A stretch of DNA of 64,000 nt, taken from positions 117,118,001-117,182,000 of the forward strand of contig NC_043000.1 in the NCBI RefSeq assembly GCF_006345805.1, in the 5' to 3' direction. The stretch is from Octopus sinensis (lineage: Eukaryota). Shown piece after piece: positions 10,080-51,250 of the stretch. How positions within the stretch are numbered: position 1 is the stretch's first letter; each line of letters opens with the position of its first letter. A program made the translations under genes and the position numbers. Below the pieces are notes generated by a model. That model saw only the letters and a list, made by a program, of their open reading frames with translations. It made no database searches and was not told the origin of the DNA.

Positions 10080-10122
<43 letters not shown>

Positions 10123-10164
10123 TATATATATTATATATATATATATAATATATATATACACACA

Positions 10165-10523
10165 TATATATACTTAAGTCAAACCATATAGAAAAAAATT
10201 AAAGATACGATAAAACATTTACCTAGAACTAAATAAAGTACGAAATGATAATTATATAGTATATAATTAGTAGGGATTTATTTATTATTATTTCGTAGTT
10301 TATTTATTTCTCGGTAAATGTTTTATCGTATTTTTAATTTTTTTTTTATATATATAGTACGATTTAAATATATCATTGTTGAATTGCTACATGGTGGTTT
10401 CTTCTCTAATTTATAAACATGTATTATATAATGTGAAATTTGATTTAGTATTTCTAAATTGAATTTTTCCCTGTAAGTTTGGAATCATATTCCCTAATAT
10501 ATATATATAATATATATATATAT

Positions 10524-10564
<41 letters not shown>

Positions 10565-10895
10565 TATACTTAAGTCAAACCATATAGAAAAAAATTAAAG
10601 ATACGATAAAACATTTACCTAGAACTAAATAAAGTACGAAATGATAATTATATAGTATATAATTAGTAGGGATTTATTTATTATTATTTCGTAGTTTATT
10701 TATTTCTCGGTAAATGTTTTATCGTATTTTTAATTTTTTTTTTATATATATAGTACGATTTAAATATATCATTGTTGAATTGCTACATGGTGGTTTCTTC
10801 TCTAATTTATAAACATGTATTATATAATGTGAAATTTGATTTAGTATTTCTAAATTGAATTTTTCCCTGTAAGTTTGGAATCATATTCCCTAATA
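10165..10895. repeat. Tandem duplication (396-nt period) of an AT-rich hairpin unit with a PLE-like terminus
   Basis: CTTAAGTCAAACC at 10173 and 10569; internal ~60-bp inverted arms; terminus TTTTCCCTGTAAGTTTGGA..TATTCCCTAATAT shared with 46655-46688 and (reverse) 29215-29255. Confidence 0.85.
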
Positions 10896-10937
10896 TATAT
10901 ATATAATATATATATATATATATAATATATATATAAT

Positions 10938-10980
<43 letters not shown>

Positions 10981-17428: not shown

Positions 17429-17849
17429 TACCTATTTCTTTACTACCCACAAGGGGCTAAACACAGAGGGGACAAACAAGGACAGACAAACGGGTTAAGT
17501 CGATTATATCGACCCCAGTGCGTAACTGGTACTTATTTAATCGACTCCGAAAGGATGAAAGGCAAAGTCGACCTCGGCGGAATTTGAACTCAGAACGTAA
17601 CCGTAAACGAAATACCTATTTCTTTACTACCCACAAGGGGCTAAACACAGAGGGGACAAACAAGGACAGACAAACACATTGAGTCGATTATATCGACCCC
17701 AGGGCGTAACTGGTACTTATTTAATCGACATCGAAAGGATGAAAGGCAAAGTCGACCTCGGCGGAATTTGAACACAGAACGTAACGGCAGACGAAAGAGT
17801 GCTAAGTATTTCGCCCGGCGCGCTAACGTTTCTGCCAGCTCGCCGCCTT
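17429..17849 (-). mobile_element. SINE family A, dimeric form
   Basis: Full unit plus a headless second unit; ACCTTTAGATAGTACC duplicated on both flanks. Confidence 0.9.
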
Positions 17850-20552: not shown

Positions 20553-20930
20553 TAAGTTCAGCAAAATTTAGATTCAGATGAATATGGCACTTAAGTTAAG
20601 GCACCAGAATTTGGTATGGTATTATCCATATAAGTCAAGTGGGCTGATTATAATCAAAATAAGCAACAAGGATATCCAAGGTAGTGTAGTACAATCGTTT
20701 CATGCTACTTCCTTTTATTAAACGCTGTAAGTATTACATCAGTTTTAAAATGTTGGCAAATGAAATAAGTATAAAAATGTACATTGTCCATTTAATTAAA
20801 AAATATTGTATGTGGCAGAATATTGCTCGACATTTTAAAACTGGTGTAATATAGTGTTTAATAAAATTAAGTAGCATGAAACTATTGTACTACACTACCT
20901 TGGATATCCTTGTTGCTTATTTTGATTATA
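20553..20930. repeat. Hairpin element in (TA)n (~100-bp arms, one arm extended ~95 nt)
   Basis: Arms 20648-20752 / 20831-20930; only a half-hammerhead GAAAC-gatt-GTA is present. Confidence 0.8.
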
Positions 20931-21175
20931 TATATATATATATATAATAGAAATATTAAAATAACTAAGTCTCTCTAAAAGAGAACAGCGGCAGCGTTCC
21001 CGGAAAATAATAGTTATCGCCATACTAATATGGCATTCTTATAAAAATAAGAAAAAAGCTGTCCGCTTATTAGCTCCATGAGGCCATCGCCTTAAGTTAG
21101 CTATTTGATACACAAACTGTACCCATATAACCTTCGAACAAGGGAGGTCAGTCGCTCCACACTACTTGACCGGCA

Positions 21176-21217
21176 GCTACAGACGCGTTTCGGGGTATTG
21201 CCCCTTTTCAATGCAGC
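21176..21217 (-). ncRNA. Minimal type I hammerhead, U3-A8 core variant
   Basis: gctgca-TTGAAAA-GGGG-caata-CCCC-GAAAC-gc-GTC-tgtagc. Confidence 0.8.
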
Positions 21218-21538
21218 GTAGCCAGCCAGTAGGTGTCGCTTCCGACAATCTCTGTTCGATGGTTTTATTTACCTAGTTTCGGTGGAATACATCCACTTGT
21301 TTTCAATAATAGAAATATTAAAATAACTAAGTCTCTCTAAAAGAGAACAGCGGCAGCGTTCCCGGAAAATAATAGTTATCGCCATACTAATATGGCATTC
21401 TTATAAAAATAAGAAAAAAGCTGTCCGCTTATTAGCTCCATGAGGCCATCGCCTTAAGTTAGCTATTTGATACACCAAACTGTATCCATATAACCTTCGA
21501 ACAAGGGAGGTCAGTCGCTCCACACTACTTGACCGGCA

Positions 21539-21580
21539 GCTACAGACGCGTTTCGGGGTATTGCCCCTTTTCAATGCAGC
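21539..21580 (-). ncRNA. Minimal type I hammerhead, U3-A8 core variant (second unit)
   Basis: Identical to 21176-21217. Confidence 0.8.
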
Positions 21581-22026
21581 GTAGCCAGCCAGTAGGTGTC
21601 GCTTCCGACAATCTCTGTTCGATGGTTTTTTTTACCTAGTTTCGGTGGAATACATCCACTTGTTTTCAATAATAGAAATATTAAAATAACTAAGTCTCTC
21701 TAAAAGAGAACAGCGGCAGCGTTCCCGGAAAATAATAGTTATCGCCATACTAATATGGCATTCTTATAAAAATAAGAAAAAAGCTGTCCGCTTATTAGCT
21801 CCATGAGGTCATCGCCTTAAGTTAGCTATTTGATACACAAACTGTATCCATATAACCTTCGAACAAGGGAGGTCAGTCGCTCCACACTACTTGACCGGCA
21901 CTACTTGTGTATCAAATAGCTAACTTAAGGCGATGGCCTCATGGAGCTAATAAGCGGACAGCTTTTTTCTTATTTTTATAAGAATGCCATATTAGTATGG
22001 CGATAACTATTATATATATATATATA

Positions 22027-22082
<56 letters not shown>

Positions 22083-32325: not shown

Positions 32326-32740
32326 AGGCGGCGAGCTGACGGAAACGTTAGCACGCCGGGCGAAATACTTAGCAGTATTTCGTTTGCCGTTACGTTCTGA
32401 TTTCAAATTCCACCGAGGTCGACTTTGCCTTTCATCCTTTCGGGATCGATTAAATAAGTAGCAGTTACGCACTGGGGTCGATGTAATCGACTTAATCTGT
32501 GTGTCTGTCCTTGTTTGTCCCCTCTATGTGTAGCCCCTTGTGTGTAGTAAAGAAATAGGTATTTCGTCTGTCGTTACGTTCTGAGTTCAAATTCCGTCGA
32601 GGTCGACTTTGCCTTTCATCCTTTCGCGGTCGATAAATTAAGTACCAGTTACGCACTGGGGTCGATATAATCGACTTAATCCGTTTGTCTGTCCTTGTTT
32701 GTCCCCTCTATGTTTAGTTCCTTGTGGGCAGTAAAGAAAT
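32326..32740 (+). mobile_element. SINE family A, dimeric, ~20-bp TSD
   Basis: ATATACCATATTGTTATATT duplicated on both flanks. Confidence 0.9.
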
Positions 32741-33855
32741 ATATACCATATTGTTATATTGTTTGTTTGTTGTTATTTCTCTATAGTATATTAGATTGTT
32801 GTATTTCATTTTATTCCAATGTACTTTATATAATTGCCAACCAGGCTGTTTTCTGTACCAATTTTTATCCTTGCACTATTCAATTCATAACCCTGGCATT
32901 TTCGGATGCCTAAGATAGCTGTAATCTTGACAAACCTTGGAAATTAAATTCTCTAAACATTTTTATAGTGAATCCTTTCCAAAATGGTAATCATAGATTT
33001 TAAATTTCATTCCTATCGAAAAAACTTTAATACTTTAACTTCAAATTACAAGGTATTCTAACTTTTCCTCGCAGCTACATTTTTCCATCGTTGTTCGAGG
33101 TTGCATTCCTAATACTTTTTTCAATTTTGTTTTCTGAAATCTGAATTTTTGCGTCCTCCATATTTTCATCATAAAATTTTTGACCCGTTATTAATATTGA
33201 TTTTTTTTCTTGTTGTACAGGTACAACATAGCTTTTCCTGCTACTTTGGTTCCAAGGTCTTTCATAGTTATTCCGAACCAGGTGTGCACACCTAGGTAAA
33301 CAAATTTTTAACTTATCCAATTAAATGAAATACAGGTAACTCTACATCAGTATAAATGATACAAGTTTATTAATACTATACTGTGCAAACTACTTTGAAG
33401 AAGAGCCGTCCAATATACTAACCAGTCTGGTGGCCACGAAAATCTGAAGTGCCTGCTCGTATACTAATGCGGATTATAGAAGGTTCTGGAAAATGAGTAT
33501 CCGGAAAGTCGATGTTAGCATTCTTTTTCCCTCCTACTTTGTATTATTGGTTAATTTCCATCTCTCAATAACTTTAATTTTAAAGTTTTAATCTCTGCTT
33601 TCTAATATTCCCTTTTTAACCTCTAACTCTATAGTTATTACTTTCTGAGATGCATTCATAACTTAAGCATCTTATTAGTCACATGATTTTCTTTTGTTCC
33701 ATTGTATTGGGTGTAACTTAACCACTAATCCATTACATTTACATTTGTTTTTCATATGCAAAATTTTAATCCCAGGTTCCCTATATTTCCCAGTATTTCC
33801 TTATTTCTCAACCATATGCTCTAAATGTAGCTTTGGTTATATTATTCCCTGAACC

Positions 33856-39397: not shown

Positions 39398-40395
39398 AGA
39401 AGCATGGACTTTGCATCAGGACATCTAAAAGACAGATTTAATGTCAGCTTACCCCGATACTCAGCGTTCTTTCGATTGTTTCTATGAAGTATACGGAGCC
39501 ATGTTTTATAGAGACGAATTCTGTAGAATTCTTTCTAAACCGCTTAAAGTAAATTTTACTCTGGTGCAGTTTTTCTCTTAATGACGATCAGGATACCAAA
39601 GAAAGACGTATGAGAATAAGAAAGGGAGTGGACAAATTGCTAGGAGAAAGTACGGGTTGGTGTTATTTATAACCATTGAAATAAACATAACGTATCACAA
39701 CACTTCGTTTCTTGTAATCTAAACGTCAGAAAGCATACATCTTACCTTTTTCTCCACACTGCCATGGCAAAAATCGCTGAGGGTATTCTAGAATTTTGTC
39801 ATACATCAATTGGTACGCAAACACGGCTCAGAACGTAGCGACGGGCGAAATACTGCTAAGCATTTCATCTAGCGTGCTAACGACTCTGCTAGCTCGCCCC
39901 CTTGCCCCTATATATGGTTAGGGATTGATAAGAAAGTACAGAGCCAAACAATAGCATGAGAGCAATTTTCGGCAGACACATTGCATTTTTCATTGACAGG
40001 TTTTATCAACAAAGGACATCAGTCATGATTATATGTCACTGTGATGTGAACATAGAAACTCATTCCTCAGGAAAGACAGAAAATATAGTGAGTTGGTTAA
40101 ACTATGTGAAAACAAGGGGTAGATGGTAATATACCTACCTGTAGAGATAGTTGTTAGGGCGTTTGTTTGGCGCCAAGGTTTACTCAATACTCAAGAGTCT
40201 TGTTAGGTATGAAGGAGACGATAGATGTTGTCAGAAAATTGCCTGAAGCTACTGAGAACGTTATCTATTGCATCTAATTCATGAGCGAGGACGAGTGGTG
40301 GGGCAAGAAGACGCATTGGAAATATTAGAAAAATCTGTATTTAGAAATGGAGTACATAAGCACCTTTACTACACAAATATTTATCTTATTTATTT

Positions 40396-40809
40396 TTATT
40401 TACTACCCACAAGGGGCTAAACACAGAGAGGACAAACAAGGACAGTCAAACGGATTAAGTCGATTATATCGACGCCAGTGCAAAACTGGTACTTAATTTA
40501 TCGACTCCGAAAGGATGAAAGGCAAAGTCGACCTCGGCAGAATTTGAACTCAGAACGTAACGGCAGACGGAATACCTATTTCTTTACAACCCACAAGGGG
40601 CTAAACACAGAGGGGAAAAACAAGGACAGACAAAGGAATTAAGTCGATTATATCGACCCCAGTGCGTAACTCGTAATTAATTTATCGACCCCGAAAGGAT
40701 GAAAGGCAAAGTCAACCTCAGCGGAATTTGAACTCAGAACATAACGGCAGACGAAATACGGCTACGCATTTCGCCTGGCGTGCTAACGTTTCTGCCAGCT
40801 CGCCGCCTT
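40396..40809 (-). mobile_element. SINE family A, dimeric
   Basis: Same structure as 17429-17849; AATATTTATC on both flanks. Confidence 0.9.
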
Positions 40810-44528: not shown

Positions 44529-45215
44529 TATATTTTGGTAAATATTTACGAGATGTAAAATTTGTGTTTTGGCAAAGATGTTCTGTGTCACTAATCATCA
44601 GCACCTAAAAAAAGCGCACAAGGGCTATGACTGTCCTTTTCTACACAAATGTGATGAAATTTTATGTTCCTTTCATCTTTTTAAGAGGAATTTTCCGTTA
44701 CATAATAAACAAACGTCTCTTGAAGGTAATACAGTTATTAAACAATATAAGAAATACATTGAGTATGGTTTATGTGCGAGGGGAAAAGGTTTCAAGGTGA
44801 TTATGTCACATCCCTGTATAACAGCCGACGAGCAATAGCCAATAATTTCTAAGTTTGGGCTAAAAGTCTACAATACTTCACCTTGTTTCCAATACTCTAC
44901 CGTAAATAACTAGTTTGGTGCCAGCTCCCTAGCCTATGGCGCTTGATCTCCCATCCGTAATAGGATCGCAGGACAAATTTTGATAATTCTATGAAATACC
45001 GGAATATGCGTTATGTAGGTATTTATGTACACACACACAACCGCATACACACATCACACACACACACAAACACACTCACTCACACAAATAAATATACAAT
45101 ATATATATATATATATATATAAAATATTATTAGAGACAAAACCACTATTTTGCAAAACAAACAAGGAAAGACTTAATCAATACATAAAATTTTAATAAAT
45201 AGTCAAAAAAAACCG

Positions 45216-45258
45216 CCACTACAATTGTTTCTTGTCTTGATCGACAATCTTCAGGTGG
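45216..45258 (-). ncRNA. Minimal type I hammerhead ribozyme
   Basis: Reverse complement of 46473-46515. Confidence 0.9.
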
Positions 45259-46472
45259 ACTTCCAATCTAAAATATCAATATTTTAAAATATAAAAATAA
45301 TAATTTTAAAATAATTAAAGTATGAATGAAAAAATGTAAATATATAATCCATATATAACCTATATATAATCCATATATAATCAATATATAAACAATATAT
45401 AAACTAAAATAAACCTATCAACAATTAAATATAAAATATAAAATATAAAATATGTTATGGGTGTGTGGTTTACGTGTGTGTATTTGTGTGTGAATGTATA
45501 GGTTAAAGGGATTCCTATATAAGTATGTTATAGTGTTTAGTAAAGGGAGGTTTTATCATTTATGTTTTGTGAGTTTTAGCTTATCATGGTAGTTTTATAA
45601 AAGAATCCATTCATAATTTTTGTGTTTATTTGTCTGTGTGGGGTTGAGTGGGTTTTTGGAGTATATGTTGAGGTTTATATGTATGTATAGGTATGTGTAA
45701 GTGGTGTGGGTATTTGTATATGTCGTGGGTGTGTGGTTTACGTGTGTGTATTTGTGTGTGAATGTTTAGGTTAGGGGGATTGCTATATAGGTATGTTATA
45801 GAGTTTAGTAAAGGGAGATTTTATCATTATATGTTTTTATGAGTTTTGGTTTATCATGGTAGGTTGTTAAGGAATTCGTAGTAATTTGTGTCTATTTGCG
45901 ATGTCTGTTGTTTTATTGCATTGTTTCATTCATAATTTTTAAGTAGTGTTAGTTTTACCAAGTGAATATAATTTTTAATTCCATTTATTCCATTTCTCCG
46001 TTCATAATTTTAAGTGATGTCCGTTTTCTAGAGCGTGAATGTGGGTTGTATGTGTGTGTGTGTGGGAGTATGAATAAGTATTGTGTTGAAGTATTTAGCT
46101 ATTTTATTTATTTATAGTTGCCTAGACGTTTTTATGTGTATGTATAGGGATATATATATAGGTGTGTGATTTAGTGTATGTAGTTAGATATGGTTATATA
46201 TAATTAGGTATATGTGTATGGGTGTATATATAGTTTATTATTATATTATTATTATTTTTTTGTTTTGTTTTATATTTTATATTTTATATTTTATATTTTA
46301 TATTAATTGTTGATAGGTTTATTTTAGTTTATATATTGTTTATATATTGATTATATATGGATTATATATAGGTTATATATGGATTATATATTTACATTTT
46401 TTCATTCATACTTTAATTATTTTAAAATTATTATTTTTATATTTTAAAATATTGATATTTTAGATTGGAAGT

Positions 46473-46515
46473 CCACCTGAAGATTGTCGATCAAGACAAG
46501 AAACAATTGTAGTGG
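46473..46515 (+). ncRNA. Minimal type I hammerhead ribozyme
   Basis: ccac-CTGAAGA-TTGTC-gatcaa-GACAA-GAAAC-aatt-GTA-gtgg. Confidence 0.9.
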
Positions 46516-46690
46516 CGGTTTTTTTTGACTATTTATTAAAATTTTATGTATTGATTAAGTCTTTCCTTGTTTGTTTTGCAAAATAGTGGTTTTGTCTCTA
46601 ATAATATTTTATAATATTTTACTATAAAATTGGATTTAATCCTAAATCTGATTTTTTCCCTGTAAATTTGGATTTATTCCCTAATATTTA

Positions 46691-50636: not shown

Positions 50637-51250
50637 AGGCGGCGAGGTTGTAGAATCGTTAGCACGCCGGGCGAAATGCTTAGCGATATTACGTCTACCG
50701 TTACCTTCGGAATTCAAATTCCGCCGAGGTCGACTTTGCCTTTCATCATTTCGGGGTCGAAAAATTAAGTAGCAGTTACGCACTGGGGTCGATATAATCG
50801 ACTTAATCCCTTTGTCTGTCCTTGTTTGTCCCCTCTGTGTTTAGCCCCTTGTGGGTAGTAAAGAAATAGATATTTCGTCTAGCACTACGTTGTGAGTTAA
50901 AATTCCACCGAGGTCGAATTTGCCTTTCATTCTTTCGGGATCGATTAAAGAAAATACCAGTTATTCACTGGGGTCGATATAATCGACATAATCCGTTTGT
51001 CTGTCCTTGTTTGTCCACTCTGTGTGTAGTCCCTTGTGGGCAGGAAAGAAATAAGAATCGTAAGCACGCCGGACAAAATGCTTAGAAGCATTTCTTCCGG
51101 TTTTACGTTCTGAGTTCAAATCTCGTCGATATCTACTTTTCCTTTCATCCTTCTGGGGTCAGTAAAACAAGTACCAGTGAAGCACTGGTGTTGATTTAGT
51201 CTAGCACCCGCTTCCTCAAAGTTTTAGGCCTTGTGTCTATAGCAGAAATG
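50637..51250 (+). mobile_element. Dimeric SINE A inserted into an older alternative-tail SINE A
   Basis: Three cores in series; AGAATCGTTA repeated at 50652 and 51054. Confidence 0.8.

What the first reader, a model, noticed from the sequence alone, without database searches (positions are those of the whole stretch)
20946..22012. 362-nt retrozyme-like array that ends at the ribozyme cleavage site
There are 2.6 near-identical units with one hammerhead per full unit. The third unit stops at TTGACCGGCA-CTAC (21904) versus unit TTGACCGGCAGCTACA|GAC, i.e. about 1 nt from the predicted cut after GUC, then flips into a 108-nt inverted arm. The unit size and lack of an ORF fit animal retrozymes. This is the best in-sequence evidence that self-cleavage defined the template 5' end and that the event is recent.
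Basis: partly seen in the sequence, partly recalled or inferred. Interest (0 to 1): 0.85.

Follow-up and report, generated by a model that had tools for sequence, protein, structure and literature searches.

The report
Penelope-style retrozyme targeted by a LINE
This is one young copy of a 363-base repeat carrying a predicted self-cutting RNA; it sits in the genome in the same two-armed pattern as a protein-coding Penelope-like retroelement that likely moves it, and elsewhere a second retroelement has inserted into it dozens of times at one exact site.

Summary
The array is real: 2.65 units of 362-363 nt, 99% alike, plus a 107-109 nt inverted arm, in (TA)n. What is fixed are the outer ends: 84 of 99 head-to-head junctions pair one arm ending at unit position 176 with one ending at 239, a 63-nt Penelope 'tail'. 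A young coding Penelope-like element in this genome follows the same rule (32 of 33 pairs, 65-nt tail, (TA)n) and is the likely mover, though no shared sequence was found. Unexpected: a 5.3-kb L1/Tx1-like LINE inserts at one site of this repeat (33 of 33 5' ends, 34 of 39 3' ends, 17-nt duplication), ending 62 nt upstream of the ribozyme cut. Cleavage, circles and expression are untested. Verdict: known kind (animal retrozyme), new variant, with an apparently unreported site-specific parasite.

The parts
20944..21904 (-). Long arm: 2.65 tandem units of 362-363 nt; its 3' end (20944) is the family's fixed end at unit position 239
21182..21544 (-). One cut-to-cut monomer, 363 nt, 42% GC, predicted highly self-paired (z -6.7); used for numbering (position 1 = 21544)
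21176..21217 (-). Type I hammerhead 1: stem I GCUGCA/UGUAGC, core UUGAAAA (U3-A8), 4-bp stem II, GAA, 2-bp palindromic stem III; predicted cut between 21182 and 21181
21539..21580 (-). Type I hammerhead 2, identical to the first; predicted cut between 21545 and 21544
20944..21006 (-). [quoted passage not shown]
   Evidence: tail concept PMC11167929
21907..22013 (+). Short inverted arm, unit positions 70-176; its 3' end (22013) is the family's second fixed end
21900..21907 (.). Head-to-head junction of the two arms; reads either as a 1-nt deletion plus 3 nt, or as a re-copy of 21886-21893
21227..21243 (-). Empty target site (unit 302-318) that the site-specific LINE duplicates in other copies
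21590..21606 (-). Second empty LINE target site, in the next unit
20925..20943 (.). Left (TA)n flank, the insertion target
22014..22073 (.). Right (TA)n flank

Best explanation
The array is one young insertion of a non-coding, hammerhead-bearing 363-nt repeat family whose copies sit in (TA)n as two head-to-head arms with two fixed outer ends 63 nt apart, and which is likely copied in by a Penelope-like element's enzyme priming one RNA at two sites. Inferred steps: an array is transcribed on the minus strand; the hammerheads would cut some transcripts to monomers or multimers that may circularise; a dimeric Penelope-like reverse transcriptase/GIY-YIG protein would nick both strands of a (TA)n tract and start cDNA at positions 239 and 176 (both CUAUUAU) of a circular or uncut multimeric RNA; both cDNAs run through the cut site, stop at scattered places and are joined head to head, mostly over 1-7 nt of overlap. 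The stop near the cut site in this window is most likely chance. Shown directly: a 5.3-kb L1/Tx1-like LINE has inserted repeatedly at unit position 302-318 of this family, always in the ribozyme's sense, with a 17-nt duplication and no poly(A) tail.
For: Fixed ends: 217 of 236 segments in 121 loci end at 172-180 (104) or 236-239 (113); in the 33 loci not picked by an end pattern, 53 of 58. 84 of 99 head-to-head junctions are 176+239, 2 same-type, 13 with an odd end. Genome counts: 262 (AT)n+239 ends, 308 (AT)n+176 ends, 0 in controls. Young coding element with a weak GIY-YIG match (E=0.018, below Pfam cut-off) and C-rich linker: dozens of hits with the identical score, 1,250 end matches; in the first 100 rows 33 head-to-head pairs, 32 short+tail, 1 partial tail+tail, counted by eye; tail 65 nt into (TA)n, measured at one locus. 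Two start sites making the tail, both strands extended, dimer predicted, ribozyme cut not needed: PMC11167929. Read-through 193 of 198. 176-arm reaches further inward than the 239-arm in 51 of 82 pairs, so it is not a plain copy of it. Junction overlap of 1-7 nt in 68 of 99. Variants carried by both arms in register also stand in all other laps in 36 of 37 informative cases, 7 of 8 for rare ones. Ribozyme: 1,985 UUGANAA..GAAACGCGUC motifs against 7 in the control; N7 varies between subfamilies; 95.8% of cells paired, 4 pairs with changes on both sides, stems I-III 100% paired in 8 sequences. LINE.
Against: No sequence shared between the repeat and any coding Penelope-like element was found, so the partner rests on matching insertion pattern only; only about 60 of roughly 29,000 first-look candidates were fetched. 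25 of 121 loci show no second arm. Circle versus uncut multimer is not decided: some arrays hold blocks of identical laps or period-2 and period-4 patterns that DNA-level duplication or assembly could make. No cleavage or RNA data. In PMC-held preprint 10.64898/2026.07.22.740005 only 1 of 9 tested retrozyme dimers cleaved. The covariation set is 8 related sequences, and the tool warns that relatedness inflates it.
Confidence: 0.8

Rival explanations
1. One reading: templates are linear RNAs whose 5' end was made by hammerhead cleavage, so reverse transcription ran off at the cut.
For: This copy stops 1-6 nt short of the cut; L010, L031, L082, L102 and L190 also stop at positions 2-7. Ends at 1-14: 11 against 7.0 expected; none at 347-363 against 8.3.
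Against: 0 of 206 ends at position 1; 5 at 1-7 against 3.5 (P=0.27); with the window left out of the end-anchored sample 2 against 2.5; 193 of 198 passes cross the site; the real hot spot is 36-53 (29 against 10.5).
Confidence: 0.08
2. The second arm is made by fold-back: the first cDNA self-primes and is copied back, as proposed for rotifer Penelope elements.
For: Palindromic junctions proposed in PMC3846280 (passages). 9 of 82 junctions have both arms stopping within 10 nt of the same unit position, 4.7 expected (P=0.047).
Against: Only 5 of 82 stop at the same place in the same lap; in 51 of 82 the 176-arm reaches further in than the 239-arm. In the window the short arm matches unit 1, not the adjacent unit 3, at 21809.
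Confidence: 0.12
3. The site-specific LINE, not a Penelope-like element, mobilises the repeat; or LINE and repeat move together as one 5.7-kb unit (hitchhiking).
For: All 10 full-length LINE copies examined lie inside the repeat; L201 and L202 share both a host lineage and a LINE lineage.
Against: The repeat's own ends are in (TA)n without the LINE's 17-nt duplication. Six LINE copies differ by 11-28 substitutions in 5.3 kb (0.2-0.5%) while their two host types differ by 6-8 in about 290 nt (2-3%). 5'-truncated copies of about 130 and 63 nt (L195, L202) sit at the same site, and tandem copies share one duplication.
Confidence: 0.06
4. The arrays are satellite DNA grown by DNA-level duplication, or assembly artefacts.
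For: Blocks of identical laps in L060, L102, L117, L184, L186 and strict period 2 in L183; many 1-nt indels in the assembly.
Against: Hundreds of dispersed short copies with unique flanks, two fixed ends and varied junctions; contigs of four other public runs hold the sequence, some running into (TA)n at the same ends.
Confidence: 0.05

Closest known systems
Non-LTR (animal) retrozymes, Cervera and de la Pena 2020, PMC7229834 (passages read)
   Same: Tandem 363-nt non-coding units (mussel units 350-390 bp), under 45-50% GC, one type I hammerhead per unit with short palindromic stem III, predicted highly self-paired RNA.
   Different: U3-A8 core; copies are mostly short two-armed inverted insertions with fixed ends in (TA)n, which the passages read do not describe; circles and cleavage not shown here.
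Penelope-like element insertion structure: inverted 5'-truncated copy, tail at one end, microsatellite target (PMC8557442 and PMC3846280, passages; PMC11167929, main text parts 1-2 of 4)
   Same: Head-to-head arms, tail on one end only, (TA)n target, ribozyme cut not setting the ends.
   Different: No ORF; tail 63 nt against 30-40 nt in print; the strict one-short-one-tail rule is counted here (84 of 86 typed pairs; 32 of 33 in the coding element).
[quoted passage not shown]
   Same: Same conclusion: retrozymes ride on Penelope-like machinery.
   Different: That work rests on co-occurrence and pLTR homology, mostly vertebrates, and leans to local tandem amplification; here the evidence is junction anatomy, and no pLTR homology was found.
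U3-A8 hammerhead variant of Schistosoma Cercyon elements, PMC4209133 (part 1 of 4 and passages)
   Same: U3-A8 in place of C3-G8; pairs of ribozymes 100-700 bp apart on opposite strands are also noted there.
   Different: There minimal ribozymes, mostly single motifs tied to coding elements; here a 6-bp stem I/4-bp stem II ribozyme in tandem non-coding units.
Target-specific Tx1-clade LINEs (Tx1L in Tx1D, Keno in U2, Tx1-Mar in Mariner-N4), PMC4494074 (passages)
   Same: Two-ORF APE-RT element inserted at a fixed site in a multicopy repeat, tandem copies sharing a duplication, truncated copies at the same site.
   Different: The target is a ribozyme-bearing retrozyme; listed targets in the passages are DNA and LTR transposons, snRNA, 5S, satellites and microsatellites. 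Clade membership not tested by a tree.

Membership tests
Type I hammerhead ribozyme | Three stems round the core with stem I open | tested here: met
   Stems I, II, III 100% paired in 8 sequences from three subfamilies; slid controls 24-49%
Type I hammerhead ribozyme | Core C3 U G A N G8 A ... GAA ... NUH | tested here: met
   Met as the published U3-A8 swap, not as C3-G8; no Rfam match
Type I hammerhead ribozyme | Self-cleavage after GUC | not testable with these tools
   Needs in vitro transcription
Non-LTR retrozyme | Tandem units of about 170-400 nt, one type I hammerhead each, low GC, no ORF | tested here: met
   363 nt, 42% GC, longest stop-free stretch 76 codons
Non-LTR retrozyme | Dispersed, recently mobile copies | tested here: met
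   895 exact ribozyme copies, 97-100% identity among the 40 candidates scored
Non-LTR retrozyme | Expressed as linear and circular monomer RNA | tested here: inconclusive
   No run on record as RNA; contigs cannot show ends or circles
Penelope-type insertion (non-autonomous) | Inverted 5'-truncated arm and tail at one end | tested here: met
   84 of 99 junctions
Penelope-type insertion (non-autonomous) | Microsatellite (TA)n target | tested here: met
Penelope-type insertion (non-autonomous) | Sequence shared with the pLTR of an autonomous element | tested here: inconclusive
   None in 90 loci from ribozyme and protein searches or in L263; the sample is a small part of the candidates
Tx1 clade LINE (the parasite) | ORF1 with CCHC knuckle; ORF2 with APE endonuclease, RT and C-terminal zinc motif | tested here: met
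   Pfam zf-CCHC, Exo_endo_phos, RVT_1, zf-RVT; nearest solved structures are human L1 ORF2, weak, E 3e-4
Tx1 clade LINE (the parasite) | Sequence-specific target with target-site duplication | tested here: met
   33 of 33 5' ends, 34 of 39 3' ends, 17-nt duplication in 10 of 10 full-length copies examined
Tx1 clade LINE (the parasite) | RT phylogeny within the Tx1 clade | not tested
   No named reference among the 120 homologues listed or 10 clusters looked up; the label Tx1-like rests on architecture and behaviour

The most novel reading that the evidence does not exclude
A three-tier parasite chain: a Penelope-like element spreads a ribozyme circle, and a LINE has evolved to home on that circle's DNA copies just upstream of the hammerhead, borrowing the host ribozyme to cut its own RNA 62 nt past its end. 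That would replace a poly(A) tail and leave target sequence on the RNA to guide the next insertion, as R2 does with rDNA (R2 comparison partly recalled). It fits the missing poly(A), the single orientation and the base-exact junctions; against it, a downstream ribozyme follows automatically from the site's position, and none of 10 copies has an upstream ribozyme in the same arm.
Probability: 0.3. Interest if true: 0.8.

Novelty: new variant of a known kind. Interest (0 to 1): 0.6.

Why it matters
How animal retrozymes get back into genomes has been open since 2020; the 2026 preprint argues for Penelope-like helpers from homology alone. Here the ends of 121 insertions carry the Penelope signature, and a young coding element with the same target, geometry and tail length is named, so the published in vitro assay can test cross-mobilisation directly, with exact predicted start sites. 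The strict one-short-one-tail rule also constrains how Penelope enzymes integrate. The LINE adds an apparently new target class for site-specific retrotransposons (no paper with Tx1+retrozyme; none relevant by title among 9 with Tx1+hammerhead; none with Tx1+Penelope+'specifically inserted'+satellite; Repbase and subscription journals were not searchable). Its endonuclease appears to have a long fixed target, of interest for site-specific insertion tools. About 2,000 ribozyme motifs here are invisible to Rfam and to C3-G8 descriptors.

Tried and rejected
My first reading of the core as CUGCAUUGA with stem I GCUAC/GUAGC was dropped once subfamily sequences showed GCUGCA/UG(U/C)AGC pairing and a variable N7. 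Rfam: no match. Partner search: the RT family of L161 is old (72-83% identity, many stops); 30 loci with canonical CUGANGA ribozymes and 60 loci from two protein searches share nothing beyond chance-level words with the unit, apart from L260, which holds a copy of the repeat itself. Expression: no RNA holder listed. Run X9 gave a single 392-nt contig (362+30, the shape of a closed loop, depth 6.9, no loose ends shown), but a tandem array collapses the same way and the run's RNA status is a guess. The idea that the period-2 array L183 comes from a dimer circle with one dead ribozyme is not clean: both alternating ribozymes carry a stem mismatch. No error peak at the predicted ligation site (0-1 differences in 193 at positions 363 and 1). 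Atlas and homologue searches gave no clade name for the LINE. Earlier-findings look-ups were empty. Left out of the end count: L032, L061, L062, L063, L080 (LINE-interrupted), segments at locus edges or with odd 3' ends, one of two duplicate copies in L126 and L135; L141-L263 were fetched later and not counted.

Full report
Observation. The window (G000:C4:117118001-117182000, a 2.72-Gb assembly) holds a tandem array at 20944-21904, period 363, 99% matches, followed by an inverted arm at 21905/21907-22013, with (TA)n on both sides. No frame is open for more than 76 codons. I number the unit on the minus strand from the first base after GUC (position 1 = 21544). The monomer folds far better than shuffles (z -6.7).

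The ribozyme. There is no CUGANGA and no Rfam match. Subfamilies at about 94% and 83% identity show the fold: stem I GCUGCA/UG(U/C)AGC, core UUGA-N-AA with N = A, C or U, stem II GGGG/CCCC or AGGG/CCCU, GAA, and a 2-bp palindromic stem III before C17. On 8 aligned sequences 95.8% of cells pair, stems I-III fully, with 4 pairs changed on both sides; slid controls give 24-49% (related sequences, so indicative). This is the U3-A8 variant reported in Schistosoma Penelope-like elements (PMC4209133). The motif occurs 1,985 times against 7 in the control. Cleavage itself is untested.

Does the cut define the end? I fetched 121 loci: 67 picked by the 239 end, 21 by the 176 end, 33 by similarity or ribozyme pattern. 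They are the first listed or best scored of several hundred. For 206 arms with a regular 3' end I counted inner ends against bases at risk. Position 1: 0 ends. Positions 1-7: 5 against 3.5 (P=0.27). 193 of 198 passes read through the cut. The hot spot is 36-53 (29 against 10.5). The window's own end is ambiguous: exact match to position 7, then 8 nt that repeat 21886-21893, or a 1-nt deletion and an end at position 2. Against my reading: 11 ends at 1-14 against 7.0, and none at 347-363 against 8.3, an unexplained step at the cut that could mean a small cleaved fraction.

What is fixed. 217 of 236 segments end at 172-180 or 236-239, both at CUAUUAU running into (TA)n; 53 of 58 in loci not picked by an end pattern, though some of these were picked with a query starting at the 239 end. 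Of 99 head-to-head junctions, 84 join one end of each type, 2 join like ends and 13 have an odd end; 25 loci have one arm only. Inverted truncated copy, one-sided tail and microsatellite target are the known Penelope-like pattern (PMC8557442, PMC3846280, passages), and PMC11167929 shows that the tail lies between two reverse-transcription start sites, that both strands are extended and that ribozyme cleavage is not needed.

A candidate mover. A protein search found a young family, dozens of hits with one score. One locus, L263, shows two inverted arms in (TA)n, a C-terminal GIY-YIG-like domain (weak) after a cysteine linker, and a 65-nt tail on one arm. Its end pattern has 1,250 matches; in the first 100 rows I counted by eye 33 head-to-head pairs, 32 short+tail and 1 partial tail+tail, plus 32 singles and one tail-to-tail pair. 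Target, geometry and tail length match the retrozyme; sequence does not. The link is inferred.

Template. Inherited variants are usually shared by all units of an insertion (180 all, 20 some, 176 single, of 376). Where both arms carry a variant in register, all other laps carry it in 36 of 37 cases, including rare ones such as L088 and L103. The 176-arm reaches further in than the 239-arm in 51 of 82 pairs, which plain fold-back cannot give. This fits one RNA, circular or an uncut homogeneous multimer, primed twice. Blocks of identical laps and period-2 or period-4 arrays show that later duplication, multimeric templates or assembly also play a part. Singleton differences are 0.2%: the family is young.

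The parasite. Ten fetched loci hold a full-length 5.3-kb element inside the unit, with ORF1 (CCHC) and ORF2 (APE, RT, zf-RVT), frameshifted in this assembly. All are in the ribozyme's sense with positions 302-318 duplicated and no poly(A). Genome-wide, 33 of 33 exact 5' ends (about 26 loci) follow the target and 34 of 39 exact 3' ends precede it; of the other 5, one abuts a U1-like start (U1 sequence recalled). Independent insertion is supported by truncated copies at the same site, tandem copies sharing one duplication, insertion into a diverged subfamily, and LINE copies 0.2-0.5% apart in hosts 2-3% apart. This behaves like Tx1-clade elements that target other repeats (PMC4494074, passages); the clade was not tested. 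The window's two target sites are empty, and the window has no LINE match.

Other samples. Twenty public runs under seven organism codes hold most of the sequence; none is on record as RNA. Contigs of four runs were laid; they show presence only.

Literature seen: PMC11167929 parts 1-2 of 4; PMC4209133 part 1 of 4 and passages; bioRxiv 10.64898/2026.07.22.740005 parts 1 and 3 of 5, supplements not seen (they list species and families and may bear on novelty); passages of PMC8557442, PMC7229834, PMC4494074, PMC3846280. Searches for a LINE that targets a retrozyme found nothing relevant; Repbase was not available.

Verdict. A real, young animal retrozyme with a variant core. The value lies in the Penelope signature of its insertions with a testable partner, and in a site-specific LINE that homes on it. 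Interest 0.6.

Noticed in passing
window 20553-20930: Directly left of the array, sharing its (TA)n flank: another element with two inverted arms (20649-20930, 78% alike) and about 96 extra bases on one side; both end types recur in other loci. Likely an older two-armed, tailed insertion of another family.
   Followed up: partly
window 45118-46613: 1.5-kb element with 311-nt perfect terminal inverted repeats; looks like a young DNA transposon or fold-back element.
   Followed up: no
window 17429-17796, 32375-32741, 40395-40759, 50716-51053, also from 23366: Dispersed family in 184-nt dimers, SINE-like.
   Followed up: no
window 10103-10961: 396-nt tandem duplication bounded by (AT)n, 97% alike.
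   Followed up: no
L151:1545-3036: A different LINE-like ORF1 starts next to unit position 320 of the 83% subfamily, on the opposite strand: possibly a second element that targets the same region.
   Followed up: no
L198:6651-8001: Older LINE copy (92%) followed by a U1 snRNA-like start and then a related LINE at 82%: perhaps a U1-headed relative, as described for crocodilian Tx1.
   Followed up: no
L075 and L041, unit position 302: Arms begin exactly at the LINE site but with unrelated sequence upstream: possibly other RNAs inserted there by the LINE's enzyme.
   Followed up: no
L153-L182: Several older families with canonical CUGANGA hammerheads (68 hits against 6 in the control), many ending in (TA)n about 170 nt after the cut.
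   Followed up: partly
L183:1355-3836: Seven-unit array with strict period 2; alternate ribozymes carry a stem II or a stem I mismatch.
   Followed up: partly
unit positions 347-363 across 206 arms: No arm ends in the 17 nt just upstream of the cut (8.3 expected), unexplained.
   Followed up: partly
L263:2068-2115: The young coding element has a hammerhead-like motif with CCGAAGA in place of CUGANGA near its 3' end; fold not tested.
   Followed up: no
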